Positions 15,377 through 63,460 are shown, numbered from the whole stretch's first letter. The stretch is DNA of 63,594 bases, filler included, from Collodictyon triciliatum (GCA_043381765.1; 5 parts of 5 records of this genome joined end to end with filler, not necessarily neighbours in it), one strand, 5' to 3'. Program-made: numbers and translations. Notes: generated by a model not told the origin, from the sequence alone.

Positions 15377-15476
15377 NNNNNNNNNNNNNNNNNNNNNNNN
15401 NNNNNNNNNNNNNNNNNNNNTTAATTAATTAANNNNNNNNNNNNNNNNNNNNNNNNNNNNNNNNNNNNNNNNNNNN
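15377..15476. other. Artificial contig linker N44-TTAATTAATTAA-N44
   Basis: Exactly 100 bp. The 12-mer has stops in all six frames. Identical linkers at 34279, 53177 and 61254. Confidence 0.97.
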
Positions 15477-16288
15477 TGGATGCACCTTTTATGACGAAGG
15501 TGTGAATAGATGGTATCTGAATTTCAAGCCCTGGATTCAATGCAGCCCAGCCTCGGATGAATATCAAAAACTGCTCGCAATATCTGTCCCAATTTTCGTT
15601 ATTTTCTTGGTCGGTCTGCCTGCTTTTGTACTGTGGAAAGTGAAAATCATGACAGAAAGACCTGGATACGAACCAGGAGCGCGATATGGATTCCTTTACT
15701 TGCCATACAAGGAGGTAATTGATTCAATATTCTTTTTATTTTGACACTATCAATTGTGAATTTTTATGGGAGTTATGTTATATAGAGTTTCAAGTATTGG
15801 GAATTTGTCATTATCGCACGCCGCATCGCTTTTTCGTTCGTGCTCAGTGTCATTCCATACACAAGCCCAGCCGTTTTCTTCGTGCTTCTCATCATTGTTA
15901 TTCAGGTGAATTAAATATTTATTTTTATGGTGCAATACATGAGATAATTTTTTGAAAATGAAATACTAAATCAAGCACAAACTATTAGGGCTCAATTTGG
16001 ATGCAAAAAGAATACAAGCCTTACCACTCGAAAATCGAAAATCAGATGGAGTTATCCAGCCTCTACATTATTTTTTTGTCATTTTTCCTTTCGCTTATGT
16101 CGACTCTTTTTGACTCGCAATCGTGGATTACAGTTTTTCTTATTGGAATGAACTCAATATGGTTGCTTTATTTTTCGTCAATCGCTTTTGTGATTCCTTT
16201 ATTCAGAAGTGGCGAAATCAAGCAAAAATTGGTCAAAATGAAAAATCTGATGAATGGAAAACGATTATCTGACCCGTTGTTGGATTAA
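15477..16288 (+). CDS. 3' part of a multi-pass membrane protein (TRP-like C-terminal TM region typical of large protist surface proteins); 5' truncated by linker
   Basis: Three exons: YLNFKPWIQC...IFLVGLPAFVLW...ARYGFLYLPYKE / FKYWEFVIIARRIAF / KPYHSKIENQMELSSL; several hydrophobic helices. Confidence 0.75.
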
Positions 16289-16477
16289 TCGAATAAATGA
16301 TTAAACAAACATTAAATTAATATTTATATCATTCTCTTAAGAAACTTACAATATTGGAATTTTCTAATTAACTTTCTTTATTTTTCAACAGTTTTCAATT
16401 CATTATATTATTTTTTGATTTTTTTTATCCTTTGCTAATAATAGATATCCCAATCATGTCATTCATTCCAAGGCATG

Positions 16478-16768
16478 TTTTTTTTCCTTTATTCGATTCA
16501 AAGTGCAACAAGGTTATGCCATAAAAAGAAGTGAGACAGGTGCGCATAGTGAAGAGCAAACGCGAGTAAGGGAAGACACTACTGTGGAGAGGGTAGCACT
16601 GGAAAGAAATCAGTGATAGCGAGTTGGTCAGGCGGGCGTCCCAACTGGTTGATTGGTTGCGTGGGTAGCAGGGGTTGGATATGCTGTGGGAGATATCTTA
16701 CGACGCATTCCCACATCTCTCTTCGCTTGCGGTCAGAGTAGCGAAGAATGCGAGCGTGTTTCAGCGGA
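16478..16768 (-). mobile_element. 5'-truncated non-LTR retrotransposon (LINE) 3' end: ORF2 C-terminus, 3' UTR and poly(A)
   Basis: The peptide ILRYSDRKRREMWE...QLAITDFF resembles the C-terminus of the zinc-finger-bearing ORF at 59847 (VLYYSDPVRRDMWK...QFLITDYF). The 3' UTR ends ACTTTGAATCGAATAAAGG(A)8. Confidence 0.75.
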
Positions 16769-17081
16769 TTATGATTATTATGATCATTATGATCATTATG
16801 ATCATTATCATTATCATTTGTTTCAAAGAGCTCGCTCCGTCTTATTAGTAGGTTGTTGTACTCACGGGTCGGTGGCAGCTGGCCTCTTGATCGTCGGTGT
16901 GTCTCGGTGCATAACCTGTGTTGCAAGGGATGTGGTAAAGTGACCTTTTCGCTCTCTGCGTTGGCTGAGTCGGCCTTCCCGGTTTGCGTCTAGTCAGTAG
17001 GCATTCATCGGCGCAGGGCTGTGGCGCTGGTCTCCTGGTAGGCGGTCTCGTTCTTCTCGGGATCCCTCTTTTCGATCCCTT

Positions 17082-17140
<59 letters not shown>

Positions 17141-18405
17141 TCGACTTCAGAACGTGGCTGGTTGATAGAAGAAGGAAAGAGCTCTGGTGTAGTAATATTA
17201 TTTTCAGAGAATGTGTCTTTTGTCTCTCAGTGTATTTATTTCTCAGCAAAAGATACTTTCTTTTTCATAGCGTTTTTTGTATTGATCTTCTCAAGTCATG
17301 TCTCTCAGTGTGATCACGTTTATTCACATTGTGATTCCCGATAAAAACTGGTGAATTCCATTAAAAGCTGACTCGTATATGTATTAAAAAAAATCTCACA
17401 AAAGCAACAGGAAGATATTCCTGTTTGAACTTCTCGGGCGTGCCTTTCGTCGGGGTGTTTTTTAAGGCGGTTATTGGACTGAAAAGAAAAAAAAGAAACA
17501 GGATGCACCTCCGGTTCTACCACTCACTCCTACCCGCGCCGTTCTGACAGTGTAATATTAGAATCCCACATAGACCAGCCGCCCTGGCGCCCAACTGCGG
17601 GCAAATGAGCATAATAAATTGTGCAATTAATACTTCCACAATGACAGAGACCCGTTCGGAGAGTCCCAGGTGCCTGAAGCTGGCATTCGTTACAGGCCAG
17701 AAGCTGCTACGGATTGCGCTGTATAATAAAATGAAGACGGCGTAAGCTTGCATTCGTTGCCTCATTAAACTTTATGCTGTGTATACATAAATATAGCGTT
17801 ACTGAATACACATTCTGACTTACAGTTATCCATAAGCTGAAGAAAAATACATTTTTATATAAATTCCGTAAATAGATAACATATAATACATTCTTACTTT
17901 ATTTGATGGATTGATTCCATATCTGGATATACAATATTATGTAGAAGCTTCCAAAGCCCCCGAAATCTCCGCTGAAAGATATTAGCACCTTCTCGAAGCC
18001 TCTTGGCCACGAAAAATCTTGTAACATTCTTTAAGAAACAACAGACCCAGATAAAACAACAGATTATTGGCGTTTTCTACAAACTCAATAGCGCCCGCTT
18101 CTTAATAAGTGAGAGTCTCTTAATCATTGCCATTTCCTCATAAAATTCTGTCAATTTCTTTCTTTTAAGAATAGTTAATAAACAGTTCAATTAATTTATC
18201 CGAAACGAGACATTATTCAGCCCGACACAACCGCGCGTGTACCTCCGACACTCCTTCAGATTACACAAATCTCAGACTCTTTCTGAGCTCGAGCTCGTGG
18301 CCCTTCAAAAACGACAAACACCAGTTACAATAGGACACACAAAGCAGCAGACGACCAGACCGCCGGACTTACTAACCTCCTGCTGAGCCGCACGATCTTT
18401 CCTAG

Positions 18406-21400
18406 ATGTTTCGACAATTCAGAGCCAACACGGTCGATAACTCAGCTCGTCTCGAAGAGCTGCGAAAGCTTGCGGAAGATCCAGATATTGTCTCCCTTCA
18501 AAACCGGACCCATTTGTACCTTGGATCAAAGAATCTGACTTCTTTTCCACCAGCAGTTTTCATACTGACCCGTTTGTTGCAGTTATGGGTGAATAGCAAC
18601 CAGATATCGTTCCTTCCGCCAGACATTTCGCGATTGAGAGGTCTCAAGGTGCTTAGTGCTGACAGTAACAAACTTTCATCTCTTCCGCTAGAAATATCCC
18701 ATTTGACCAACTTGGTTTACCTTGGTGTTTGCGGAAACCAGGTGTCGTTTTTGCCTCTAGAGATATCCGTTCTGACAGGTCTCACTTATCTGGGCTGCGG
18801 AAGCAATCTCCTAGCGACACTAGAGCCGGAGATATCGTGTCTGACAAACTTAAAAGAGCTTGATATCAGTGTAAATAAATTATCGTGGCTTCCTTCCGGA
18901 ATATCCTGCTTGAAGTGCTTGGAATACCTCAGCGCCTATGAAAATCTATTTTCATACCTACCTACTGAGATGTCTGATTTGGAGTGTCTCAGAGAACTAG
19001 ACATTGGGTCCAATCAGCTGTCCTCTATCCCCGAGGGAATTCTGTGGTTAACCGGCCTAAATGAACTGCATATCGGAGGCAATCATCTTCCCTCCATTAG
19101 CCCGCAAATATCATGGCTGGCTGACTTAATTGTACTCGCAATCGACAGGAATCCGGTACAATTTTCTTTCAATACAAAGAATATCAATATAAATCCTTCA
19201 TTTCCCTAAAATTGTGAGATTCAAATTATCACAGAATTTAGAAAACACATACCTTTAATGATAAAACCAAACATAGATCGAAGAGCTCCCATCTGAAATC
19301 ACAGCTTTAAAAAATCTGAAGAGATTATACATCGAAGCCTCAGGCCAGATAAATATAAAGAGAGCTCCCTGCGGAATTACTAACCTCCCTTGCTGGGACA
19401 ACAAGGACAAACCTTCCACAGACATGACCATGAGTTTTGCGGAGGCTCTTCAAAAGCTTGAACTCTACGACCCCGTAAGCAATATTTTTACATTGTATTA
19501 AGTGATACTAATTTTTTTTTTTTATTCTTCCTTTCAATTTTGTGCAGGATGGTGGAGATGTTGGCATTAAGTGATACTAATAATAACGTGGTATAATTAG
19601 GGAACATCTGTTTTTGAAGAACAGGGAGGTTTCAAATCTGAGCAAGCCAGGAGAGCTGAAGAGGATGCTAAGGTTTTTTCAAACCCTCAAGGAATAACCT
19701 ATCGACTAGAAATTGAGACTATCAGATTGTGTAATTGCCATCTAATTAATATATAGCATCAGCCATTGTTTGTCCAAGCGATCAAGTCTGTCCACCCAGG
19801 TTACAATGACTCCAACCTTCACTCAATTCATGGACTGATGACTCCAAGTATACCCATTGATTGTGGTCTCAGGACTAACACCGATTTTATAGATAAATCG
19901 AGGGCGAACTACAGACCCTTCGCAAGCGGAGAAGTGTTTCAAGTAAAGTCTCGTCTGGCGTCAGGGTGAGATTTATCGGTGTTTTCTTTTTTCTTTCTTT
20001 TTGACGGAATCTAAGCTCATCTTCTGGGCTGTAGTGTGCTCGAGGTTGACGGTATCGTCGAAAACTTCTATGTGGATGAGAAAAATGTAAAGGAGCTCGA
20101 CAGAGGCAGCTGCGGGAACGTGTCGCTGTATGGTGAGAATAATTGTGTTGGAGCAATCTGTCACTGTTTTCTACTCCATTTTAATGGAATCTACAGTTTA
20201 TTTTTCTTCTATTTGTCTTTTTCTTTTCCTTTTTATTCATTTCTTCTCTTTTCTTCTCCTTTGAATTCAATCTTACACCTCATTATCCTACTCGCACTCG
20301 AAACTAGACCAACACAAGAGAAGGCTGAAACTCGCAAAAATCCAACAGCGCATCATCCACGCAAAGTCCATGGTCTCGCAAGTAAGTAACCCAACAGTTG
20401 TGTCCCCATCGACCATCTATCATGTATAACGGTATTAAACACACCACGAGCGTCACTTGACTCATCCCTGTGTCAAGATTTGTACGGACGGTCTGGACGA
20501 TGATGAATGCACGACTTACGACGAGCTGTACCACGGAAAGGAAGAAGAAAATGAGATCGCTGTCGAAGGCGGCCAAATACCCAGGGATAGTCAGCAGGTC
20601 GCCGACTTCTCAGAGATTGTATATTTCGTGAGCGAGGACTTTGTAAACAGCGCGGTGGAAAAAAAGGACTCTGCTGACATTACGGCCAAGCGCGTCAAAT
20701 TAGAAGTCGACGCTTGCCTCTCTGGTGCATTGTGCGCGCTCTGCTTCAATTTCTACACAGCGCCCCGCTCTCTTCCTTGCCAACACACTTTCTGCACTGC
20801 ATGTATCAAGACTGCCATCATCGACTCCAAGCAGGAGCCTCCCTTCAGCTGCCCGATGTGCCACGAGCACACATATATCGACGAAGACTCCTTGTGCGAC
20901 TTGGCTCCTCCCCAGTACGACACCGGAGCTTCGGAAGCGGCAAAGCAAAGTCTGGATGCAGATAAGAATGAACGCTCGACTTCTCGCCAAAAATGCCGAG
21001 CAAGAGGATGCTCAGAAGATGCAACGTCGTACTGTGAGAACTGTGGCGAAAAGGGTGTTTACTGCACAGAACACAGCAAAATGCACACCGTTGTATTGGA
21101 CGACCATGTCATCAAGTAAGTATCTCTTCATCACCAGCATAGAAGTGGATGGTGGGTGGATGGGATTTATTTTTCACATTTGATATGGGAAGTGTGGTTA
21201 CCCTATAAATATATGAACATTTCACAAGGCCTTTAGTATGGGGAGCAGTGCCGAGCCTGAAGAAGGTGGAGAACTGTGCATTGCACAAAGATATTCCAAT
21301 CGGATTCTTTTGTCCGTCATGCCCCGAGTCTCCTCTAAAGTGCGCGAAGTGTGTATATGATGACAAATTTCATGATGCATTCCACAAAGAACTGAAGCAG

Positions 21401-21615
21401 GCAGGATTTGGAGCAGACGCCGTCATCACAGCGAAAATCAGAGAGCTTGGAGCCTCAGAGCAAAAGCTTAGGTGTATCACGGAAACTGTCCGGGACAGAA
21501 TCAACGAGGTATCTGGCCATCCACGTATATACACAGATGTGGCATGGGCTTACCTTTGAAACAAGTCGTGTGTCTTTCACATATACTCGCTATCTGTTTG
21601 TTGTCTCTCTTTTCT

Positions 21616-21690
<75 letters not shown>

Positions 21691-23174
21691 GATGTAGTTA
21701 TTATTCACTACAAACATCCTCATCCATTCTTTGTACAGGTCACTTGTTGCCACAAACAACAAACAGAAGAGTTGGACGAGTTTGTTAAAGAACTGGAGGC
21801 TCAGGTCAGGCGGTTCAAGATAGAATCCCGGGAGCAGGTACGCCCGAGAATAAATATTGAAGATGGTACAATGTCACACGGGCCCCTTGCTAGTGCCTTC
21901 CATCCTTTGTATGTGTGTATGTATGTTTTAATATTTTCCATAACGCAACAAAACAGCTCGAGGCCATGAACACATGTGTCCTCACCCCTCTGCAAGACCT
22001 TCAAAAGAAGCTGGAATGTGAGATGCACCGAATCCGCATCGCCAAGCGAAGCCTCGCCAAGCTGAAGAAGGATGCTGACGACCGATCGCTGATTCAGACA
22101 GGTAATGCGCTACGCTTTGCCAACCAAGTTCTCTATTCCAAGTACGATGCACCTGTGCCGATTGTGCCTCTCAAGATTATCTCAAGAGTCTCGGACTGCA
22201 TCCTGCATGACCTCAAGAGACTGAATGAGTCGTTCATGTATGGCTTGAGCTTCACAAACACAGGCAAGCCGCGCCAAAGGATAGAGCAATCATCTTCAGT
22301 CGAGCTGTTTTATGAGATTGGCATTCCGCCATCACAAATCCCACCGACGCCCACAGCAAGCGCAGATTCTCTGACAGCAAATATAACGATTGAGTGTCCG
22401 TGGGCTGTTTGTGTGCACCCACAGAACGGTAGTGTATATGTCACAGACGAAGACATGCAAACCGTGCTCATCTTCGACACAAACCTCAGACACATATCAT
22501 CGCACCACACCGGACTTAGTGTCCCAAAGTCGCTGCACGGCCCAAGAGGAATCGCTATCTCGGGCGATGGACTGATAGCCATAGCAGACTGCGAAGGTCA
22601 CTGTGTAAAACTCTTCACAGATGAGCTCACACTGGTCAAGACTATCGGTGGGAAGAAAGGCACGGGGAGCGGACAGTTCCACCGGCCATACTCGGTTGCG
22701 TTCGACAGCGAAGGGAGCTTCTATGTGGCCGACTCTGGGAACCAACGAGTCCAGAAGTTCAACAAGAAAGGCGACTTTGTCTGCATCGTGGAGGTTGGAA
22801 ATGAAGGTGACAGCCCCGCCAAGCCGCTCGTCAACGGTGTGTGCGTCAACGAAGAGGATGAGCTTTTGGTTTTGTGTGCCGGGTCCGACAGAGTTCGTGT
22901 GTTCTCCAAGGACAGAGGATTCGAAGGAAGTGTCAAGCTGAAGACTGCAACGAGTGTGGAAGGCTGGTCGCACATATTCCGGGCCTCTCGAGGCATCTTT
23001 GGTGTTTGCGACAACAAAAGCGGAGCGATAACCTTCTACGACTACAAAAGCGTAGTTCATCATCGTGCTGTCGTGCAGGGCTGCCTGGGGGCGTGCTTTG
23101 GACGTGATGGGACTTTCTACACGACGAGCCTTTCGCAAAAATCAGTGTCTGCCTTTTCCACAGGGCATGAATAA
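18406..23174 (+). CDS. Single gene: LRR array - uncharacterised linker domain - RING - B-box - B-box - coiled coil - NHL beta-propeller (LRR-fused TRIM-NHL-like E3 ligase)
   Basis: LRR exon 18406-19155 splices in phase 0 to 19277-19474 (IEELPSEITALKNLKRLYIE...DMTMSFAEALQ). Further GT-AG exons lead in frame to RING CALC...LPCQHTFCTACI...CPMC, B-boxes (CRARGC...CENC...YCTEHSKMH; CALHKD...CPSC...CAKC...H), a coiled coil, and NHL repeats (LHGPRGIAIS, FHRPYSVAFDSEGSFYVADSGNQRVQKF). Confidence 0.8.
19497..19581 (-). mobile_element. Short retro-insertion, family B (53-bp insert 19513-19565), with perfect 16-bp TSD, in intron
   Basis: attaagtgatactaat flanks both sides. The insert reads gccaacatctccaccatcctgcacaaaattgaaaggaagaat(A)n on the minus strand. 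The same 3' end recurs at 25908-25939. Confidence 0.82.
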
Positions 23175-24181
23175 CCTTTTGATTTCGCTTGTTTCCTTTT
23201 GCTCCCAGCCCGGGATTTCCGACAGAATAATGATAAAAAAGCACGCAATACCCAACACACTCACATGGACAAAGACATAACACCGAGATTCGCTAAAATA
23301 CATCGATGACTTTGAGTTGAAAACATCTCGGAGACGGGGCACAGGTGTGGTTTTTTCGGATTTGAGTGTCCGATTCAGGGTATATCTGGAAAATACTCAA
23401 AAAAAAATAAAGTCTGTTTATAAATCACATCGATGGACATGTTTTAACAAAATATGTGTGCATTTTGTATGCATTCTCGAATCCAAGCTAGATAATGGGA
23501 TAACATCAGCGTTGGCAGGCGTTCCTTCTTTTTATACAGATGCAGTGTCCGCAGGTATTTCAAAGGTGCAGGTTTGTAAGCGATCCTGCGTTGCCGCTCC
23601 CAACGCCAAGTCCCCTTATCGCACCAGTTAATACCGTTCTCTTTGCGCGTTGTGTGATGAAATAGGAGTATCACTGGTAACAAGTTATTAGTCTTTTTTG
23701 TCTCTTCTCTTATCAGCCTGTCGTTGCGTACCCTTGTTAGAGACCTTTTGGTTAGCTCTCAACTTGAGCTGCCTCAACCAAGGTTGCCGGCCTGCCTATT
23801 ATCCATTTTTCCGGCGTTATAATGGTATGTTTTCCCATGGTTTTCCCGTCTACTGTAGTAAAGCGGTTGATCTGACTTTGCTACAGATCCTGAGGACTGA
23901 TTTTTCTCTCCAATTAATCTAACAAATCGAGCAGCCTTTCTACTTATTCACTTATATATTCACCTAATTAGTTATCCTTGATTTATTTACGTATTTATTT
24001 GATTAGTTAATTATCCAATTAGGGTTATTTCTTATTCGTAGCTTTCCAAGATTTTTTTTAGATAATATCTTATTTTTTAAAAAGAAACAATACCTCAGCT
24101 CATGGTAGCAGCTCGTTTCCATCATGATATATTATAAAAATCAATATCTTTGCACAGCCAATAAAAACAGGAAAAAAAACA

Positions 24182-24348
24182 TGAAAAAACAGAGAAAAAC
24201 AGAGAAAAACAGAGAAAAACAGAGAAAAACAGAGAAAAACAGAGAAAAACAGAGAAAAACAGAGAAAAACAGAGAAAAACAGAAAAAACAGAAAAAACAG
24301 AAAAAACAGAAAAAACAGAAAAAACAGAAAAAACAGAAAAAACAGAAA
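24182..24348. repeat. (AGAGAAAAAC)n / (AGAAAAAAC)n minisatellite
   Basis: Direct reading. Confidence 0.95.
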
Positions 24349-26105
24349 ATAATAGGAAAGTAATTCAATAATGCAGTGAATTGAATAAATTCATGCCAAA
24401 TCACATGACGGTGAGGTATGCTATGATCTTGTCTCAGGGAAATTCTTGAAGTTAATAGGATACTTTTCTTTTACGAATACAGCTTACATATTTTGCACTT
24501 TGTTTGCACATAACCCTTCACTTTATCGTTTAAGTGTTTATCCTCCCTATATGTATTATGATTATCTGAATTATTAATTGTGATATATTCCCTCTTTTTT
24601 AATCATAGGATTATCTTTTCAAGATGGGTTTCATCCGCGAACACTATTTTATCCTTCAAAATGCATCGGGTTTAGTAGTGGTTCCATAAAGCATTTAAAC
24701 GTATGCATTTTTATTTCTTGTCCATGAACGGGAAGATAGGTATTGCAGCACAACTTACTGCCATGCGATGTATTTTATATATATCTATTTTTCTTTTCTC
24801 CTCTCATCAATAATCAAACTGTTTCACTAAATTTATTGATTATGTTCAACATTAATATTGGGATTAGATGCATATATTCTTGTTTGTACTATTCATCCAT
24901 TTGGTTGGGCTATTAAGTTCCTTACCTTTACTTCGTAGATTGGTTAGAAAAGCAATAGGATGTTGATAGTGGTAGATTTTCCTTCCTTCTTGCTTCCAAT
25001 CCTCATGTGGACTTTATCAGACTATCATTTCATGGTCCTGATATTCCTCTTTAGATACGTATTTTCAAGGACGGTACAACTATTGCTCTTTTATATAAAG
25101 AAGTAGAATTATCACACCACTTTATTATAAATATAAATGCTTGATTAAGCACAAACTATGTTTTTATAAAAATGTATGCAAGTAAAATATCAAAAGAATT
25201 TTCAAACCCTAATTCATTGATGTTAATTTTTTCCATCATCCATCTCATACATCTTACCGTACCAAACCACATATACAAAACTCAAAAAAAAAAGTATCAC
25301 CAAAAGAAAAGTGGGAGAAGCAGTTTCGCTTTCTACATATTTGTTCCATTGTTTAAATCATATATAAATATTTATCTAATAAAAGGTATACTTAACCCTC
25401 AACCCGGGAATTGTTTTTTACGATGTTTAACTGGTAACTCATTTGATCTAAATGCAAGTGTTACTCGAGACAGGATTTTTTAACAAGTGTCTATGAAGCT
25501 CTGCATTTTCAAAAATCACACTTATTAATCGAGCTTATCCTTTTATTTTATCAGCTCCAAAAGCATATACGTCGATGTAGTATTGACCTTATCAACTCTT
25601 TCTCATCAATGTTACAGCACAGAAAAAAAAAGAAACTTATATATTGATATGAAAAATAGTACCTGAGTGAATAAAAGTATGTTAATACAAATTTTATTAC
25701 TTCAATTAAATACATACTGAGTGATTTTTCTTTCATGTAGTTTTTATGTTGTCCATATAACAAAATATTTCATAAAAAAACATGTCGACACTTAGTTAAG
25801 GATGGTTTGTCTATTAAAATTAAATAATAATGTCAAACTATTCTATCGTGAATTTTGGTAGTACCTTTACATTCAATTGAGACAGAAAGCAATAGAAAGG
25901 ATATATTAATTGAAAGGAAGAATAAAAGAAAAAGAAAAATGGAAACGCCACATTAAATTATTATCGTGATTCGGAAATAAAATGACAATGAAACGAACAA
26001 CGCCATTTAGTGCTCATATTCAAATGATATATTTTCTGGTATTTTAATGCTTATATTTTTTTTTACTATATTTTCACTGATGAAATACTGACAAAGTACC
26101 TCTAG

Positions 26106-32278
<6,173 letters not shown>

Positions 32279-34278
32279 AACATCCACGCTCAACCCTTTA
32301 AAATCCCTTTGAATATAGGTATGGCTTCCTATGATGATTTTTTATTCTGAAGCGGTTTTTTTCACCCTCCCGAGATGTGTTTTAGTGCAACCTCATCCAC
32401 TTTTAGGGTGGTTTATGGATCTGGCAACTCTGCATGCTATTTATTTATTTATATTTTTTTTTTTCATATCCCACGCCGCCGCAATTTTACTACACTAGCA
32501 AGTCTCTTTTATTTATGAGAATGCGCGTTAATCTTCGATGACTTCTTTAATTTGCAAATAGAGTATGGAGATATACTACTCATATATCACGATTAAAAAG
32601 AGCACGAAATCGAAACACAATTTGAGAGTTCAACAAAGACATAATTGTTTCCTGGTTATCCCCACCCACTCACCGGGTGTTTTCATTATTTCTTTAAAGG
32701 GGTCGATTAAATCAATATCATGTCATAAAACTGGCACTAATTTGACTTGTTACTTACAAATACTGCAAGCATTCTTTTGTGCGCATTTGGTTTAACCCAC
32801 ACTTGATTTATAGAGACGAAAGCGAATTCACAAGCAGCAAGAAAGTTTGTGTATGTAAAGCAGTATTCTTAAAATTGACATAAGGTTGTACCCTCCTAAA
32901 TCACTGAAGAATAAAAGGAGGGGCATATTTTGAATTGAAGTTTCGCAACAAAACTATATCTCTTGAAAACCTCATCTCAGGAAAAAACCAATCTGTTTCG
33001 GATAACCTGGAATGATTTTTTTGTTTTTTGTTTTTTGTTCAGTAGCTATTCCAAGTCACCAACCACAATATTTAGATGGTTTAAGTAGGACTATAAATCA
33101 GCAAGATTTCTTGCTTTCGTTTCTTCGAATAGAAAAAATAAGGCATGAAAACAGAAGAGAAAATAACTTGGGAATTGTCATAGGGGATTTGGTTACCGGT
33201 TTTGATCCCATATTGACCAACGCCGCAGGTTTTGATGCCTCCTGAGCCTTCCATGGCTTTGCCTGCAGCTCATTCTAGATTTAAGTTTCGTTTAATATCA
33301 TGAAAAGAAGCATCTTACATATGCACATATCTGGGTTTTCCTTGGATGTTCATTATGCTATAGGTAATTACCGAGTCTGCATCTCCCTCAAAAACATTGA
33401 AAGTGGCTGGTCTCTCGCTGAACTCAAACTTTTCAGATTCATTGAATTTTTTTTAATATATACTCTATGTTATGACGTTCGGTAGAACATTCAAAAAGCG
33501 CAAATGGATTGGTGAGAGTTAATACTTCATCTTCGGGGCCGAGATGAGCGACAAGTGAAGCGAGTGGGCGATGGGGTGCTGTTTGGAAATTAATTCAGTA
33601 AAATTTGAGAACTCTATTTCTTGGAACCTTGCGCACGCTCAAAACTTGGATAGTAATACAAAATCAATTAAAAATGTGATTGACTACGCGTCTGTAATAC
33701 TGAAGATTAGCTATTGATTTACCAGAGTGTATATTTCGGTGTTTTCTCGCAACCTGAATTATGGCTGTTCGAAGTTCCTGAAATTTTTGTGAAAATAGTT
33801 GCTTATATGTGATGCCCGTAGGAATTTGAGTTTTCTATCCTTACAAAAGGCTACCTTCATAAGAGCAGGTTTCAATTTTTTAAGATACGTCTCTATGGAG
33901 CGGCCCGCTGATTCATATACTAATTTGCACGTTAACATAAGGTTTTGTGTCTGTAAATTATATTGCATGCGAAAGGCATGAAAACGTACCCCCATTTCTT
34001 TTATAATATATATAGCCTTTTGCTTTTTGCTTTTTGTTTGAAGGTCACATGAATTTAATATCGCTTATCACACAAGTGAGGGAGCATGCAAAGCATAATC
34101 GTCTTACTATGCAGTGTAATATCAAATGCAGATTTCCGCACTTTCCCATTCGGACTTTGGAATGTATTGATAACAAAACTCATAACCGGCTATGAGTAAA
34201 ATAATTTTTATTATAAAAACAAAAAAACAACAAAAAAACAACAAAAAACAAAAAAAAAACAAAAAAAAAAAAAAAAAA

Positions 34279-34378
34279 NNNNNNNNNNNNNNNNNNNNNN
34301 NNNNNNNNNNNNNNNNNNNNNNTTAATTAATTAANNNNNNNNNNNNNNNNNNNNNNNNNNNNNNNNNNNNNNNNNNNN
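34279..34378. other. Artificial contig linker N44-TTAATTAATTAA-N44
   Basis: Same 100-bp linker. Confidence 0.97.
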
Positions 34379-53176: not shown

Positions 53177-53276
53177 NNNNNNNNNNNNNNNNNNNNNNNN
53201 NNNNNNNNNNNNNNNNNNNNTTAATTAATTAANNNNNNNNNNNNNNNNNNNNNNNNNNNNNNNNNNNNNNNNNNNN
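53177..53276. other. Artificial contig linker N44-TTAATTAATTAA-N44
   Basis: Same 100-bp linker. Confidence 0.97.
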
Positions 53277-56200
53277 AATTGTGACAAACAGCTGACCGAA
53301 TTACCAGCTCTATTATCTGCGATGACGTCAATCCACTTTCTAGACATCTCCATGAACCAGGCAACTTAAATTACACTTATTCGTTTCATTTATCAGAGTT
53401 ATGTTTTACATTCATGTTTAGATTATATCAATAACCCCTTTATTTTTTAAGATAACCGAATATCCTGATTGGCTCGGCAACATGATTCAAATTAGATCGC
53501 TCAATATCTCTCAATGCCAGGTATTTTTGATTAACTTATCACTCATCAAACTATTACGCGATTAACCTCTTGATTAGCTGTAACTAACCCGCACTGCAGC
53601 TTTCCAAGGTTCCAGAGCCAATTGCAAGACTCGAAAATCTCAAAAATCTGGATATATCCCACAACCTAGTTAGTGATTTTTTCATTCATGCATTCAATAT
53701 ATAATACAAAATAATTATATATAACATATGAAATGACAAAGATTAATAAATTAAAAACACATTATTTAAAAAAACCATCAATGCTCGTTTATCTTTATAT
53801 ACCTATTGAACACATACTTTTACTGAAGTAAAAAGTATCATTAATCATATGTATTTTTGCATGTAGATTGAAGTATTGCCACCTTTCTTGGGTAAAATTC
53901 CGACCTTGAGAAGTGGGCTCAAAATCGGTGGAAACCCAATCAAGAACGTGCCCCAGAACGTCCTTCAACGAGGCTCTGAGGACACGTTTGACTATCTTTT
54001 GGCATTACTTGAGGGCAAAACTTTGAATATTGAGGGGCGAATTCTATTACTCGGTGAGGGCGAGGCTGGAAAAACCACGCTGCGAGAATCATTGAAACAG
54101 GACAACCCCAAGGGTTTCAAATCAACTGTAGATGCCAACCGAAACAGAACAGATGGGATCGAGATTGAGAAAGGTTCCATTATCCTCAACTACCTAGAGC
54201 AGAATATCCATGCAAATATTTGGGACTTTGGCGGCCAGGACATATTCCACGCGACTCATTCGTTCTTTTTATCTGGAAATGCTCTTACGCTTATCGTGTA
54301 CAATATGAATGAACAACCCTTCCTTTCGAGTGTTTCACAGTGGCTTAATATGATTTCATATTTCTGCTCTGGGGCAAAAGTGATAATTGTGGGAACTCAC
54401 TTGGACAAATTCCAAACGAAGGAAGAATGTCACGATGCGACAGAGAAATGTAATGAGGAATACCAGAAACTGAAAGCTCTAGATTACTACAAGGGTAAAA
54501 TTGAGTTTTGTGGACATTTTACGACAAGCAATCAAACTGGAGCCAATATTTTTGAATTGAAAAGGGAGATTCATACTCAGCTTCTGGAACTTCCAAACGT
54601 TGGAAAATTCATTCCAAAACAATATAATGACCTAAAAGAAACCCTTGCGGATTGGAAAAAACAACAACACCTCTCAGTGTCCATAAAAAAAGATGTTTAT
54701 CCCGCGGCTACAGAATTAGGAATTAATCCTGCATCTACAGAGTCGGCACTTCGCTTCCTTGCAGACATGGGGATCGTTGTTTGGAGCGAAAAGAGTGAAA
54801 ACATACGCGATACAGTGTTTCTCAACCCAGAGATACTCATTTCTTGTTTTCGTGGAGTTTTCAATCTCAAAAGCAGCAGAACTTCTGATTCTCAAGCAGA
54901 AACCGACCCGAACGAAATCAGAGGTATATTTGAGGAAAGGACGCTCCAAGAAACACTAGATAAGACCATTCGGTCACAGTTGAAATCTATTTTACCATCT
55001 CTGATACCAAAGTTCACAAAACGAATAATGAAGCTCTTTTGTGATTACAAGCTCGCCTATTATATTGGAAAGTCCAAGATTATATTCCCCATTCTCGTGC
55101 GCGATGAAGAACCTCCCGATACTTGGATTGCCGATTTTTCTAGTGTCAAGGAGGCTGTTCATTATTTAATTGAATATCGTAGTGAAATTCCTAAAAATGA
55201 CATTAGTCATATAATTGGTGACATTGTGGCAAAGCTTAATATCACGTCTGGTACTTTGCCACAATGCTTGTTTCTGAGTAAGCAGCGGTTAATATTTCCA
55301 TTTTCGTTGACTCGTGTCGACGATTACAGACTAGTGATGAAGGAGAACAATTACAGTAATGATTTTACTGCCTTCATCCACTTTTTGCCTATGCACGAGC
55401 GTCAGGTACGACTCTTTGCCTATATTGTGAAAATATTCCATCAATTTTTTAACTTGTATTTTCTTAGCAAAATACTTAACAGTTCGAATTTTCTTTAGGA
55501 AAATGGGCAACCAAAATACATCAGGTTGCCGAGTACCCAAAAGATTATCGTCATAGTGAAAACTACGAAAGAAAACTGTTGCACGATTGATTCCACCAAC
55601 TACATTGTCAATCAATTAATAAAATCCAAAGTTGGGATGGATGTCAAGTTGGAAGGCGTAATGTGCCCAAAATGCATCGAAAAGTTTCAAAGTGGCAAGG
55701 GAATTAGAGAGCATGTCTCATTACTGATGCCCAAATATACAACGACAGTTGAATCTGGAGTATTGTTGACCCTAGGCACAGACAATGCATCTCCTAATCG
55801 CGAATTTCATTCTCATCTGGGTGGATGGAGTCCATTTCATCTCAGTGCCAAATGCAGTTTCGGTGCACATGAAATTAAGCAAGCTGAATATATGAGACTT
55901 AAGCTTCCCAGTAGCGCTTTGCGTCTCAATTATTCTGGGACAGTGCTCGAGCAGAGAGGAATAATTGGTATCGAAAACAGGGAGATATACATTTTCCTCT
56001 CGTCAACTTTTCAGGATATGATAGAGCTTCGAGAGAGCTTCGTTAGATATGCTAAGCCAAGGTAAGCCTTAAAACAATCCATCCAACAAAGTATTGCCCT
56101 ACTCATAAACACAGACCTGACGTACCGAATCAAAACTAGAATAATAACTGATGCTGAGAAGCTCGGTGTTCGTGTTAGATTCATCGATTTAAGATGGGGT

Positions 56201-59149: not shown

Positions 59150-59846
59150 TTCGAAACTTGTCCCCTTTGGAATCCTTCCTATTCCTCCAAAAGGTGAATC
59201 CCTTCTTATCACCACATTACTACCTAACTTTTTTTTTTTTATAAAAAGACAATAATATTTAATTTCTTCTTTATATTAAGAATGAATTGAATAACACAGC
59301 AAACAAATTATATAAAAGATGGAGGCATACAATCATATGTATATGCCTAAATTGGAAGCTGAGTTACACTTTATTGTTTTTTTCTTTGTTTGTACTGGTG
59401 GTCGCGATAACGATTAATCTTTAAAATATGTGCGTTGTTCACTGATTTTAACGTATCAAATATAAATATTAAGTGACGTGAGAAGAAGAGGAAACGAATC
59501 ATTCTTCCAACGATGTACCAAGTGAGCATAAAAGTATGGCTATGACAAAATAGCCTCCATCAGATGTTAGGCTCAGCCTTGCAGAAATAACGTCCAAAGC
59601 TTATTCGTTCAATTTTAAGAAAATACATCCAAATCACCCTTATCACAATTTCAATACTTTTTTCTACCTCAATCATTCATTTTTCAGGGGTTTTCAGCAT
59701 TTGCTTTTTCCCGTCCATAAAAATCTACAAACATATACCTTTTTTTTTGCTTTTACCACTTAAAGCATACATCGAGCACAGAATAAAGATAATAATAATA
59801 ATAAAAATAAAAATAAAAAACAGTTGAACACTTCATTCCTTTTATT

Positions 59847-60503
59847 TTGGCAAAAGCTGGCAAAGTCTCCCAACGATGCACACTTTGCAGCAACGGTGAT
59901 GAATCCATTGAGCACACATTTGTGCAATGTCCCTCCGCTCAAAACCTGCGCGAAACAGCCGGTGAGATTCTCCGACTAACACTCAAGACGGCTGCGGCTG
60001 TTGACCCAATCCAGGCGATATTTGGGCCTCTGCAACAGCTGCGTCCAGATGCGAAAACATTCTGGGCAGTGACGCGAGGCCATTTGGTATGGACTATGTG
60101 GATAGCACGCATATACTCACGCAAAGCAAGATTCAACAACCAGCCACCCATTCCTGATAATAGGCTGAATGACATCATACAAATCTCTTTCCTCAATAGC
60201 TTTCTTCGCCACCTGCACGTTCTCTACTACTCCGACCCCGTGAGAAGAGACATGTGGAAAGAGGCTGAGAAGGACATTAAACCTCGCCTTGTATCTCTCA
60301 TGCAAGCGCAAGACCCAGGCTACAGGCCAAACCGCAGGATGCAATTCCTGATAACCGACTACTTCTCCGCCACCCGGCCACCAAGTAGCGTCCGTGCAAA
60401 CGATGATTAGGTGGCATATTCTGCACCATCGTCTTTATTGACGCGGAAAGAACATCATCTATTAATCGCGTGTTAGTCATCACAAAGCAACGCCCTTGAC
60501 AGG
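59847..60503 (+). mobile_element. 5'-truncated L1/Tx1-like LINE fragment (ORF2 C-terminal CCHC zinc finger, zf-RVT) plus 3' UTR
   Basis: CTLCSNGDESIEHTFVQCP followed by W...LVWTMWIAR...FNN, typical of L1-clade ORF2 C-termini. Intronless and GC-richer than its flanks. Possible 9-bp TSD ttattttgg at 59842 and 60504 (weak). Confidence 0.82.
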
Positions 60504-61253: not shown

Positions 61254-61353
61254 NNNNNNNNNNNNNNNNNNNNNNNNNNNNNNNNNNNNNNNNNNNNTTA
61301 ATTAATTAANNNNNNNNNNNNNNNNNNNNNNNNNNNNNNNNNNNNNNNNNNNN
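61254..61353. other. Artificial contig linker N44-TTAATTAATTAA-N44
   Basis: Same 100-bp linker. Confidence 0.97.
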
Positions 61354-61719: not shown

Positions 61720-63460
61720 CATCTAATCCCTCGTATCCACTCCAGATGCACCCGAAGTCCACGAATGGAGGCGGCTCGTCGACATTGCCCCTGGCCCTTG
61801 CTCCCTTTTCGTCGACGGAGCGAAAGACTCTGATGTGATTCAAGGTCACCTGGGAGATTGCTACTTTCTCGGCGCGCTGAGCGGTTTGTCCTCTGTAAAT
61901 CTCCCATCTGAAATGAATGCAAATTCACTTTGTCGTCTTAGCCTCCATCAAACCACCACGCGCAAATGTTTTCTGGTACTCCCTTTCTCCAACTTCATTT
62001 TTTTTTCTCCTCGGCGCACTTGAGAATGCCCTCTTTAATCTTATTTTTCTTTTCTATTTCTGGGTCATATTGTTTTTGGCTTTCCTTGACATGGCCTCTT
62101 ACGCAAGAAAGTTGGCGGTGCTTTTATCTTAAAATATACGCATGAGGGTTGAAAAGCAATTAACAGAATACAATATACTTAGTGCTTACCACGCGGCCTG
62201 ATTTGTTTCCTCGTTTTTTGCTCGAGTCCTATCCACAATACAGTCTTTTCATGGCGCAGTTTTACAAAGAAGGCGAATGGAAAGTAATTTATCTGATTCA
62301 CTCCAAAACTACTCTCGTCATATTTTCTATTGTTGGGGCTAATCTTTGCAGTCAAAGTCGCAAGGAGATCATCTTCGATGGTCAATTTTTAAGAGTAAAG
62401 AAACATTAATCATCACAGCAAGTAATTGTGGATGACTATATACCTGTTGGTGAAGACGGAAAACCTGTTTATGGGAGAAGCTCGAATCGTTAGTTTTTTT
62501 TTTAATCAACCCTCTGGGCCTCGTTCCAGTAATTTTATACGTAGCTGGATATATCGCGCATATTTTTATACTATTCACGTTGTACTTTTCTCTATCATAT
62601 TTTGTGGCAGCCAATGAGTTATGGGTTCCGATTCTTGAAAAGGCATATGCAAAGATTCACAAGTGCTATCATAATCTTGATGGCGGGAGCACTTCACAAG
62701 CCCTTGTTGATTTGACTGGTGGTGTTCCAGAGAAAATGTACTGCTGTTATTATTTCCTATTAATATACCTTCGACTAATTTTTTAGCTAAATTTTACACA
62801 TTCAATTACTTTTTTTTTTTCGTAATTGCAGAGAAATAATGGATGAATCCTTTTTCATCCTTTGCGGTGTATTGAAAACCATAATGAATAATACTATGCA
62901 TTAGTGATTTGGACGATAAGAGAGTCGCCGCTACGTTCAGAACTGGAGAGTTCTGGAAAAAACTGATTCGATTCCAAGCAGAAGGGTTCGTTCCGATGGT
63001 GTTATGATTCACATTTGTATATAATTTATCCACACTTTTATTTTCTCTAGATTCGATTTATTTTGAATCAACTTTTCTTAATTTTCGAAAAAGTTCGGCA
63101 TATTACCATAAATGATTTTCAGACTTATTATTGAATTTCTCCTTACCAAGGTTTCTAATGGGCTGTGGAATGAGTGTTGAAGGAGAGGGAGAAAACGATT
63201 TTGCTGGTGTCGGAATTCTGCAAGTTTGTATTTGTACAAATAATTTATAAAATTGTTGCATTTTTCAATTTCCAGTTTTTTTTATTCTTATTATTTTCTC
63301 TATATGCACACACGACATTCAAGAGAAAAGAATTTACGTCCGCAACATTCCTTTAATTCCAAGTGTGATGAATTCTTTTACTCCAACAGAATCACGCTTA
63401 CGGCATCATCAGTATTACAGAAACATCCACAGGACACAAGCTGCTTCGCATCAGAAATCC
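61720..63460 (+). CDS. Calpain-family cysteine protease catalytic domain (partial, multi-exon)
   Basis: DVIQGHLGDCYFLGALS (catalytic Cys), VIVDDYIP, ELWVPILEKAYAKIH...ALVDLTGG, NHAYGI (His) and LLRIRNP (Asn): intact triad. Confidence 0.93.

What the first reader, a model, noticed from the sequence alone, without database searches (positions are those of the whole stretch)
18406..23174. LRR array fused in frame to a complete RING-Bbox-Bbox-CC-NHL protein in a protist
Seen: the apparent stand-alone LRR ORF has a phase-0 donor at 19156. The next exon (19277-19474) encodes a further LRR and runs without a stop into exons that lead to the RING. Every junction I traced is GT-AG and phase-compatible. 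Established: TRIM-NHL proteins (TRIM2/3/32/71, Brat, Mei-P26) are best known from animals and normally begin with the RING. Inference: a two-sensor E3 ligase (LRR plus NHL propeller), possibly for cell-autonomous defence. I do not know this architecture from characterised proteins.
Basis: partly seen in the sequence, partly recalled or inferred. Interest (0 to 1): 0.75.

Follow-up and report, generated by a model that had tools for sequence, protein, structure and literature searches.

The report
LRR fused to protist TRIM-NHL ligase
This locus most likely encodes one large ubiquitin ligase with a leucine-rich-repeat domain in front of a complete TRIM-NHL protein, a combination also found in transcripts of the freshwater protist Diphylleia rotans, and TRIM-NHL proteins were thought to be confined to animals.

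Summary
The LRR ORF has a phase-0 GT donor at 19156. Exon 19277-19474 continues the 23-residue LRR register across the splice without a break. A 10-exon, all GT-AG chain from 18406 to 23174 gives an open 1211-aa frame: LRR, linker, RING, two divergent B-boxes, coiled coil and a six-bladed NHL propeller.

The main support for fusion is comparative. The closest full-length relatives found are transcript-derived proteins of two Diphylleia rotans genes (Trinity, EukProt). Each carries LRR, RING, B-box and NHL in one ORF, and each is collinear with the window model on both sides of the linker.

The four small linker exons rest only on coding potential and splice logic.

RING and NHL each match animal TRIM2/3/71/Thin best.

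I put a fused mRNA at about 0.8. Function, whether defence sensor or signalling scaffold, is inference. I class it as a new variant of a known kind, of moderate to high interest.

The parts
18406..19155 (+). Exon 1: start codon, about 35-aa N-terminal cap, LRR repeats 1-9 and the first 8 residues of repeat 10
   Evidence: Pfam LRR_4 4.4e-20 and LRR_8 1.1e-17. 23-residue register. An in-frame TAG lies directly upstream. The D. rotans homologues have N-termini of similar length.
19156..19276 (+). Intron 1 (121 nt, GT..AG, phase 0)
   Evidence: Removing it restores LRR repeat 10 exactly in register.
19277..19474 (+). Exon 2: rest of LRR 10, LRR 11 or cap, and a family-specific motif region ending before the linker
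   Evidence: 37% identity over 70 aa to D. rotans P0393 residues 102-171. 47% over 38 aa to P0244. Codon score +21.5 in frame against -21.6 and -6.8 in the other frames; this exon was not in the training set.
19601..19672 (+). Exon 3 (24 aa), linker; predicted only
   Evidence: Stop-free block chosen by the dynamic-programming chain. The donor GTTTTT is weak. No Pfam match.
19757..19965 (+). Exon 4 (about 70 aa), linker; predicted only
   Evidence: Its stop-free block has a codon score of 15.3, second to the 16.9 of the longer block 20015-20386 and higher per codon (0.22 against 0.14). In the best chain, which starts it at 19763. No Pfam hit and no Atlas hit.
20035..20132 (+). Exon 5 (about 33 aa), linker; predicted only
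   Evidence: Positive codon score. GTGAGA donor and pyrimidine-rich acceptor. Phases fit exons 4 and 6.
20308..20381 (+). Exon 6 (about 25 aa), linker; holds ATG 20371, a possible start of an LRR-less form
   Evidence: GTAAGT donor, ends in phase 0. Met at model residue 464.
20478..21115 (+). Exon 7: acidic linker tail, RING (nt 20733-20861), first Cys/His box (nt 20994-21107)
   Evidence: zf-C3HC4 1.1e-7. There is no Met in this frame between the upstream stop and the RING. Best solved matches are the TRIM2 and TRIM3 RINGs, about 1e-7. For the first box, ANCHR-like_BBOX scores 7e-4, below its cut-off.
21229..21508 (+). Exon 8: B-box2 (nt 21275-21385) and start of the coiled coil
   Evidence: zf-B_box 0.023, below cut-off. 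7 invariant Cys/His columns shared with the two D. rotans proteins. Aligned to the B-box2 columns of animal TRIM-NHLs by hhalign.
21739..21837 (+). Exon 9: coiled-coil segment (33 aa)
   Evidence: GT-AG, phase 0 at both ends. Falls in the coiled-coil part of the collinear alignment.
21957..23174 (+). Exon 10: end of the coiled coil (helix over residues 2-60 of this exon), spacer, six-bladed NHL propeller (nt 22398-23156), stop TAA 23172-23174
   Evidence: Pfam NHL 4e-22. AlphaFold2 gives 24 strands over residues 148-400, with 10-residue pLDDT block means mostly 89-98 and dips to 56, 75 and 80. Foldseek top hits are Thin, TRIM71, Lin41 and TRIM2/3, TM about 0.8 on the target.

Best explanation
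The finding is one gene (18406-23174, + strand, 10 exons, 1211 aa). It encodes an N-terminal solenoid of about 10 cytosolic-type 23-residue LRRs with a family-specific cap. This is followed by an acidic linker of about 230 aa with no recognisable domain, then a full TRIM module (RING, two divergent B-boxes, coiled coil) and a six-bladed NHL propeller.

What is shown:
- the domains;
- the first splice, by repeat register;
- the four TRIM-part exons;
- homology of both halves to single-ORF transcripts of Diphylleia rotans.

What is inferred:
- the four small linker exons;
- that the fused mRNA is the main product;
- all of the function.

Likely mechanism, by analogy with TRIM-NHL ligases (from established knowledge of the family, not tested here):
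- The coiled coil dimerises the protein.
- The RING recruits a charged E2.
- The NHL propeller binds a protein or RNA target.
- The LRR adds a second ligand-binding surface. It could bring a further substrate or partner to the ligase, or gate the ligase until a ligand binds.
For: 1. LRR repeat 10 is split by intron 1, and the 23-residue register runs unbroken through the junction.
2. Exon 2 matches the segment of D. rotans P0393 (residues 102-171, 37% identity) that lies directly upstream of that protein's linker and RING.
3. By blastp, model residues 165-322 match P0393 15-173 (E 9e-24) and 546-1204 match 278-914 (E 8e-48). The order is the same. P0391 gives a similar picture.
4. P0244/P0391 and P0393 are Trinity ORFs from two different D. 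rotans genes. 3 of the 5 isoform proteins scanned carry LRR, RING and NHL together.
5. The RING exon has no Met upstream of the RING, so it needs an upstream coding exon.
6. The 1-kb linker consists of GC-richer stop-free blocks joined by canonical sites with fitting phases. No intron is longer than 230 nt.
7. The best chain scores 29.2, the reverse complement 6.9, and the median of 244 controls 0.5.
Against:
- The linker exons have no detectable homologue and no Pfam or Atlas match.
- The D. rotans linkers are shorter: about 75-115 aa between the cap and the first RING cysteine, against about 235 aa here.
- 20 of 244 control stretches score as high as the linker chain, so the coding-potential test is only moderately specific.
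- The exon 3 donor (GTTTTT) is weak.
- Reading through the exon 2 donor gives a stop after 9 codons. That would make an LRR-only protein.
- ATG 20371 with a GTAAGT donor could start an LRR-less protein.
- One D. rotans isoform ORF (P0245) lacks the LRR.
- Trinity ORFs can be chimeric, although two independent genes show the same order.
Confidence: 0.8

Rival explanations
1. Two adjacent genes. An LRR-only gene (exons 1-2, ending at the stop reached by reading through the 19475 donor, or shortly after) is followed by a separate TRIM-NHL gene. The second gene's first coding exon would hold ATG 20371, or the Met in the 19757-19965 block. The locus would then be a fission of the fused form seen in D. 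rotans.
For: - Read-through of the exon 2 donor stops after 9 codons.
- ATG 20371 sits 12 nt before a GTAAGT donor, in phase with the RING exon.
- A T-rich stretch of 25-33% GC at 20140-20300 could hold a promoter.
- The D. rotans isoform P0245 starts at an internal Met and lacks the LRR.
- The linker exons have no homologues.
Against: - Blocks 19601-19672 and 19757-19965 score as coding, yet the frame has no start codon upstream of model residue 368. The only way to supply one is through exon 2.
- Their phases fit exon 2 and the RING exon.
- Both D. rotans genes keep the two halves in one ORF.
- P0245 is identical to residues 230-918 of P0393, so it may simply come from a 5'-truncated contig.
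Confidence: 0.13
2. A decayed fusion. The ancestral fused gene has lost a functional linker here, so the predicted linker exons are chance open blocks and one or both halves are no longer made as a working protein.
For: The linker is about twice as long as in D. rotans and has no recognisable similarity to it. Open GT-AG paths are plentiful.
Against: - Both halves keep intact frames, all zinc ligands, a regular LRR register and a confidently folded propeller.
- The linker chain scores in the top 8% of control stretches.
Confidence: 0.05
3. A rival reading of function, compatible with the fused gene. The LRR is not a pathogen sensor. It is a scaffold of the SHOC2/RSU1/ROCO kind that docks the ligase onto a small-GTPase or phosphatase signalling complex, while the NHL binds RNA or protein as in animal TRIM-NHLs.
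For: - The best solved LRR matches are LRRD1 (5e-74), Leptospira LIC LRR proteins, SHOC2 (about 5e-46) and RSU1.
- By my reading of the Pfam column, about 46 of the 120 listed LRR relatives are Roc-COR proteins.
- A Roc-COR gene lies in the same window.
Against: LRR similarity of this kind reflects the repeat class, not the ligand. No partner was tested.
Confidence: 0.4

Closest known systems
Diphylleia rotans transcript proteins TRINITY_DN445_c0_g1_i1 (P0393, 918 aa) and TRINITY_DN9790_c0_g1_i1/i2 (P0391, P0244); EukProt, uncharacterised
   Same: Same order of parts in one ORF: N-terminal LRR, the same cap motif region, linker, RING, two Cys/His boxes, coiled coil, NHL-like propeller. Collinear alignment to the window model (E 9e-24 and 8e-48 for P0393).
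   Different: Only 23-37% identical. They have about 3-5 LRRs against about 10 here. Their linkers are shorter (about 75-115 aa against about 235 aa between the cap and the first RING cysteine). Their NHL matches in Pfam are much weaker (1e-5 to 3e-4). It is not known whether they are orthologues or paralogues of the window gene.
Animal TRIM-NHL ligases: TRIM71/LIN-41, TRIM32/Thin(Abba), TRIM2, TRIM3 (Marin subfamily C)
   Same: RING, B-box, coiled coil and six-bladed NHL in the same order. The profile comparison is collinear over 544 columns (E 3e-39). NHL: TRIM71 2.5e-37, Thin 1.2e-32, TRIM2 2e-30. Fold TM about 0.8 on the target. The RING matches TRIM2 and TRIM3 best.
   Different: Under the fused model the RING begins at residue 553 instead of at the N-terminus. 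There is an N-terminal LRR. No filamin domain is present (as in TRIM32). The B-boxes fall below Pfam cut-offs. The host is apparently not an animal.
LRSAM1 (LRR + SAM + RING E3 that marks intracellular bacteria for autophagy)
   Same: An N-terminal cytosolic LRR combined with a RING E3 in one chain. This is the best-known precedent for an LRR steering a ubiquitin ligase (abstract of PMC11863841, seen in the listing).
   Different: No SAM domain was found here. In LRSAM1 the RING is C-terminal, and it has no B-box and no NHL. Its domain order is recalled, not tested. The window protein is not a member; LRSAM1 is a functional analogy only.
SHOC2 / LRRD1 / RSU1-type cytosolic LRR scaffolds and ROCO-protein LRRs
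   Same: 23-residue repeats of the same class. These are the strongest solved matches and database matches.
   Different: None of them carries a RING, B-box or NHL. None of the 120 listed LRR relatives has those Pfam domains; one (P0051) has SAM plus U-box.

Membership tests
TRIM / RBCC | C3HC4 RING finger | tested here: met
   zf-C3HC4 1.1e-7, 32 bits against a cut-off of 21. The TRIM2 and TRIM3 RINGs are the best solved matches.
TRIM / RBCC | B-box2 zinc finger after the RING | tested here: met
   Pfam zf-B_box scores only 0.023 (15 bits, below the cut-off of 24). However, 7 invariant Cys/His columns are shared with the D. rotans proteins, and the exon aligns to the B-box2 columns of nine TRIM-NHL representatives in hhalign.
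TRIM / RBCC | B-box1 (present in some TRIMs, e.g. TRIM71) | tested here: inconclusive
   ANCHR-like_BBOX 7e-4 and zf-B_box 0.22, both below cut-off. The Cys/His spacing is visible in the sequence. The AlphaFold2 model of RING plus this box has mean pLDDT 56.6, too low to search with.
TRIM / RBCC | Coiled coil between B-box and C-terminal domain | tested here: inconclusive
   A long helix covers residues 2-60 of exon 10 (pLDDT about 50-77), and the region is collinear with TRIM coiled-coil columns. No coiled-coil predictor was run and dimerisation was not tested.
TRIM / RBCC | RING at the N-terminus of the protein | tested here: not met
   Under the fused model the first RING cysteine is residue 553. 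In the D. rotans proteins it lies at about residue 199 or 285.
TRIM-NHL (class VII; Marin subfamily C) | C-terminal six-bladed NHL beta-propeller | tested here: met
   Pfam NHL 4e-22. 24 strands in six blades; 10-residue pLDDT block means mostly 89-98, with dips to 56, 75 and 80. Foldseek top hits are Thin, TRIM71, Lin41 and TRIM2/3.
TRIM-NHL (class VII; Marin subfamily C) | Full-length collinear homology to animal members | tested here: met
   hhalign probability 100, E 3.1e-39, 544 columns from RING to NHL. The query profile is carried mostly by the two D. rotans rows.
TRIM-NHL (class VII; Marin subfamily C) | Filamin/Ig domain before the NHL (TRIM2/3/71; absent in TRIM32) | tested here: not met
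   No Filamin match at E<=0.01 in the 21894-23171 piece. This feature does not define the whole subfamily.
TRIM-NHL (class VII; Marin subfamily C) | E3 activity and RNA or protein binding by the NHL | not testable with these tools
   Needs biochemistry.
LRR (cytosolic 23-residue class) | Tandem LxxLxLxxNxL repeats in register | tested here: met
   10 rows of exactly 23 residues plus a cap. LRR_4, LRR_8 and LRR_14 above cut-offs.
LRSAM1 | SAM domain and C-terminal RING after the LRR | tested here: not met
   No SAM match in any piece. The RING is followed by B-boxes, coiled coil and NHL.

The most novel reading that the evidence does not exclude
TRIM-NHL ligases are older than animals. A lineage in CRuMs-type protists coupled the whole RBCC-NHL module to an N-terminal LRR receptor domain. 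This would make a self-contained 'sense and ubiquitinate' immune or prey-handling protein that works like LRSAM1 or an NLR-E3 hybrid. The fusion predates the split between the two D. rotans genes and the window gene.
Probability: 0.25. Interest if true: 0.8.

Novelty: new variant of a known kind. Interest (0 to 1): 0.58.

Why it matters
First, taxonomic range. The only survey I read (Marin 2012, PMC3503706; abstract and three passages) lists the NHL-bearing TRIM subfamily as animal-only and finds only the TRIM37/MATH subfamily outside animals. Here a full RING-B-box-coiled coil-NHL protein has its nearest full-length relatives in a collodictyonid protist. If the window is from such a protist, the origin of TRIM-NHL moves to before, or outside, animals, or else there has been a transfer. 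CRuMs is placed at the base of Amorphea (abstract of PMC10492846).

Second, architecture. An LRR in front of a TRIM is not among characterised architectures as far as my searches reach:
- Literature searches found nothing. I saw titles and abstract starts only.
- None of the 120 listed LRR relatives has RING, B-box or NHL.
- None of the 120 listed NHL relatives has an LRR.
- Only 1 of the 54 RING-B-box relatives scanned has an LRR.

The protein offers a natural test of how an added recognition domain is wired to a TRIM ligase.

Tried and rejected
RNA evidence
- The look-up of sequencing runs listed 8 runs. The best holds 0.27 of the sampled words and is only guessed to be RNA. Five lake or freshwater metatranscriptomes hold 0.06-0.08.

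Resources not available
- No whole genome is held for the window, so paralogues could not be counted. Within the window there are none.

Word-based protein searches
- All three were swamped by generic repeats.
- LRR exon, lengths 'longer': 265 hits, 120 listed.
- Coiled coil plus NHL exon, lengths 'longer': 562 hits, 120 listed, mostly bacterial NHL proteins.
- P0393, lengths 'near': 73 hits. Apart from its own cluster these are LRR-only proteins or five amphibian RING-B-box-SPRY proteins.

Metagenome scan
- A RING/B-box1 alignment gave 73 loci. No locus matched more than one region class of the model. L001 matches one continuous stretch, model residues 553-823.

Linker
- No Pfam family at E<=5 for the four small linker exons; the linker part of exon 7 gave only DUF3131 at 0.073, below its cut-off.
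- No ESM Atlas hit for exon 4.
- No tblastn match to the D. rotans linkers at E<=50 beyond chance-level scraps.
- A weak resemblance of exon 3 to the residues that follow the cap in P0393 appeared in the MAFFT alignment. By my reading of that alignment it is 3 identities in 24, which I do not count.

Other
- The AlphaFold2 model of RING plus the first box was too poor to use (mean pLDDT 56.6).
- Hand-traced exon chains were off by one base and failed.
- Exhaustive path enumeration timed out.
- I did not identify the organism. No tree of TRIM-NHL proteins was built, so vertical descent against transfer is open.
Full report
**What is at the coordinates**

The region 18406-23174 lies on the + strand. 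It sits inside one uninterrupted piece of the window, 15477-34278, with no N. It is plainly eukaryotic: GC-richer blocks of 45-57% alternate with T-rich stretches of 7-33% GC.

Pfam on the large open blocks gives:
- LRR families for 18406-19155 (LRR_4 4.4e-20, LRR_8 1.1e-17);
- a weak LRR_14 match for 19277-19474 (0.0012, below cut-off);
- a C3HC4 RING for 20439-21116 (1.1e-7, above cut-off);
- NHL repeats for 21894-23171 (4e-22).

**The first junction is real**

Exon 1 is 750 nt and ends in phase 0 before GT at 19156. AG at 19275-19276 opens a 198-nt phase-0 exon. In the joined translation the LRRs fall into ten rows of exactly 23 residues. The tenth row is made of the last 8 residues of exon 1 and the first 15 of exon 2. 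Without splicing, the frame runs into a stop at 19207-19209. A codon log-odds score trained on other exons gives exon 2 a score of +21.5 in frame and -21.6 and -6.8 out of frame. So the 'stand-alone' 267-aa ORF is not the gene product.

**The TRIM-NHL part**

Four exons (20478-21115, 21229-21508, 21739-21837, 21957-23174) join with GT-AG introns of 113, 230 and 119 nt. They encode the following:
- A RING.
- A first Cys/His box. Its best Pfam match is ANCHR-like_BBOX at 7e-4, below cut-off.
- A B-box2. Pfam zf-B_box scores 0.023, below cut-off. Its ligand columns are invariant in the alignment with the two D. rotans proteins, and hhalign places it in the B-box2 columns of nine TRIM-NHL representatives.
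- A helical region.
- A propeller. AlphaFold2 on exon 10 with a 14-row alignment gives 24 strands over residues 148-400. The 10-residue pLDDT block means there are mostly 89-98, with dips to 56, 75 and 80. That is six four-stranded blades.

Comparison with solved structures:
- Foldseek ranks Thin, TRIM71, Lin41, TRIM2 and TRIM3 NHL domains first (E 1e-18 to 1e-13, TM about 0.8 on the target).
- By sequence the order is the same: TRIM71 2.5e-37, Thin 1.2e-32, TRIM2 2e-30. Bacterial PknD reaches only 5e-12.
- The RING matches the TRIM2 and TRIM3 RINGs best (about 1e-7).
- The profile of the window B-box2 exon with the two D. rotans proteins aligns collinearly from RING to NHL with the animal-type set (E 3.1e-39, 544 columns). 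That profile is carried mainly by the D. rotans rows.

**Is the LRR part of the same gene?**

This is the heart of the finding, and direct RNA evidence could not be obtained.

The evidence is therefore comparative.

- An exhaustive HMMER search of 1.84 billion cluster representatives with the RING/B-box1 exon found only 10 proteins at E<=1e-10.
- The best is a 126-aa metagenome fragment (47% identity).
- Among the next are P0244 (754 aa) and P0245 (689 aa).
- Exact look-up shows both are Trinity ORFs of Diphylleia rotans in EukProt, from two different Trinity genes. Their cluster mates are P0391, P0392 and P0393.

Pfam on these five proteins gives:

| Protein | Domains found |
|---|---|
| P0244 | LRR + RING + NHL in one ORF |
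| P0391 | LRR + RING + NHL in one ORF |
| P0393 | LRR + RING + NHL in one ORF |
| P0392 | LRR + RING, C-terminally short |
| P0245 | RING + NHL, no LRR |

P0245 is identical to residues 230-918 of P0393.

Alignment to the window:
- P0393 residues 102-171 align to window 19277-19486 at 37% identity.
- P0244 residues 81-118 align to 19286-19396 at 47% identity.
- This segment is the last LRR plus a distinctive cap region. In the D. rotans proteins it lies directly before the linker and the RING.
- With the spliced model built in a script, blastp gives residues 165-322 against P0393 15-173 (E 9e-24) and residues 546-1204 against P0393 278-914 (E 8e-48). P0391 is similar.

So three genes share both halves in the same order: the window gene and two in D. 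rotans. In the two for which transcripts exist, the halves are one reading frame.

**Evidence inside the locus**

- The RING exon is open upstream to 20439 but has no Met before the RING. It must therefore be preceded by a coding exon.
- The 1003 nt between exon 2 and the RING exon contain four GC-richer stop-free blocks with positive codon scores.
- These blocks join through canonical sites with fitting phases: donors GTAAGC, GTTTTT, GTGAGA, GTGAGA and GTAAGT; introns of 126, 84, 69, 175 and 96 nt.
- The blocks at 19601 and 19757 have no Met before model residue 368. If they are coding, they need exon 2.

I tested how special this is.
- A dynamic programme that maximises codon score, fixed at both ends, picks the same four blocks, with three alternative boundaries, and scores 29.2. 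The reverse complement of the same DNA scores 6.9.
- For 244 control stretches from the rest of the window, both strands, the median is 0.5, and 7 have no path at all.
- 20 of the 244 reach 29.2. The 15 best, the ones printed, all lie in other GC-richer stretches that hold long ORFs.
- The linker therefore looks like genic DNA. This supports the fused reading but does not prove it.

**What argues the other way**

- The linker exons match nothing.
- The linker is about twice as long as in D. rotans.
- Reading through the exon 2 donor gives a stop after nine codons.
- ATG 20371, 12 nt before a GTAAGT donor in phase with the RING exon, could start an LRR-less form.
- D. rotans has an LRR-less ORF, though that may come from a truncated contig.

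I put a fused mRNA at 0.8, two separate genes at 0.13 and a decayed fusion at 0.05. An LRR-less isoform alongside the fused one is not excluded.

**How it probably works**

Shown here: an LRR solenoid, a RING, B-box-like zinc modules, a helical region and an NHL propeller in one predicted chain.

Inferred from what is established for TRIM-NHL ligases (recalled): the coiled coil makes an antiparallel dimer, the RING engages a charged E2, and the NHL surface binds RNA or protein.

The LRR is of the cytosolic 23-residue class. Its best solved matches are LRRD1, Leptospira LIC proteins, SHOC2 and RSU1. By my reading of the Pfam column, about 46 of its 120 listed database relatives are Roc-COR proteins.

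That leaves two readings. [quoted passage not shown] The other is a scaffold that docks the ligase on a signalling complex. Nothing here tells them apart.

**Comparison with what is known, and novelty**

- Marin 2012 (PMC3503706; I read the abstract and three passages) lists the subfamily with TRIM2/3/32/45/56/71 under 'Animals'. It finds only the MATH-bearing TRIM37 subfamily in other eukaryotes.
- Literature searches for TRIM-NHL with metazoa/origin/unicellular, and for LRR + B-box + NHL + RING + domain architecture + protist (3 papers), showed no description of this architecture. I saw titles and abstract starts only, and later work may exist.
- In sequence space the combination was rare in my searches. 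None of the 120 listed LRR relatives has RING, B-box or NHL; one has SAM plus U-box. None of the 120 listed NHL relatives has an LRR. Of the 54 best RING-B-box representatives scanned, out of 150 listed, 1 has an LRR and 13 have NHL at E<=1e-6. Of 73 metagenome loci, none matches more than one region of the model.
- The named NHL-bearing neighbours are animal proteins from Lingula, Acanthaster and Branchiostoma. Several others are unnamed metagenome clusters.
- The architecture is thus already present in a public transcriptome but, as far as I could see, undescribed. I class it as a new variant of a known kind.

**Limits**

- The organism was not identified. 'Protist' rests on the nearest relatives being D. 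rotans proteins. Contamination of that transcriptome cannot be excluded by me.
- No tree was built.
- The paralogue count and an InterPro architecture query were not possible.

Noticed in passing
window 15377-15476; same geometry at 34279-34378, 53177-53276, 61254-61353: There are paired runs of 44 N separated by 12 bases. At the first site the 12 bases are a six-frame stop spacer (read). The other three share the 44/12/44 layout, but I did not read their letters. The window looks like contigs joined artificially, so adjacency across these points means nothing. The locus studied lies wholly within one piece.
   Followed up: partly
window 53867-55498 (+), continuing to 56065: There is a single long ORF with Roc (7.1e-20) and COR-A (3.7e-10) domains. 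Its first residues look like the end of an LRR, so it may be a ROCO-type protein in the same window as the LRR-TRIM gene. The spacer at 53177-53276 may cut off its 5' part.
   Followed up: partly
window 62454-62786 (+): A calpain catalytic-domain fragment (Peptidase_C2 1.3e-14), probably one exon of a larger gene.
   Followed up: no
window 31898-32278 (+) and 31202-31684 (+): TPR_12/TPR_1 repeats (2.8e-12) next to a long (TAT)n-type microsatellite that reads as poly-Tyr.
   Followed up: no
window 59817-60410 (+): An ORF with a zf-RVT match just under its cut-off (1.2e-5, 26.3 against 27.5 bits). It may be a retroelement remnant.
   Followed up: no
window about 21619-21688 and about 17089-17139: Uninterrupted poly(T) tracts of about 70 and 50 nt. 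The first lies inside intron 8 of the gene, the second upstream of it.
   Followed up: no
window 18365-18405: A TACTAAC-like box, a pyrimidine run and AG end exactly at the base before ATG 18406. The start codon may sit at the beginning of an exon that follows a 5'-UTR intron.
   Followed up: no
protein cluster P0369 (673 aa; 32 members, JGI/IMG, Logan, ENA contigs of 1-11 kb): Unnamed RING + B-box + NHL proteins encoded on short metagenome contigs. This is another possible non-animal or viral source of TRIM-NHL-like proteins.
   Followed up: no
protein P0051 (481 aa, EukProt m51a1_g10980): LRR + SAM + U-box in one protein (Pfam list). This is an LRSAM1-like layout with a U-box in another EukProt entry.
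   Followed up: no
proteins P0391 vs P0244 (D. rotans TRINITY_DN9790 i1 vs i2): The two isoforms differ by a 33-residue hydrophobic insertion before the propeller. It looks like an in-frame retained intron.
   Followed up: no
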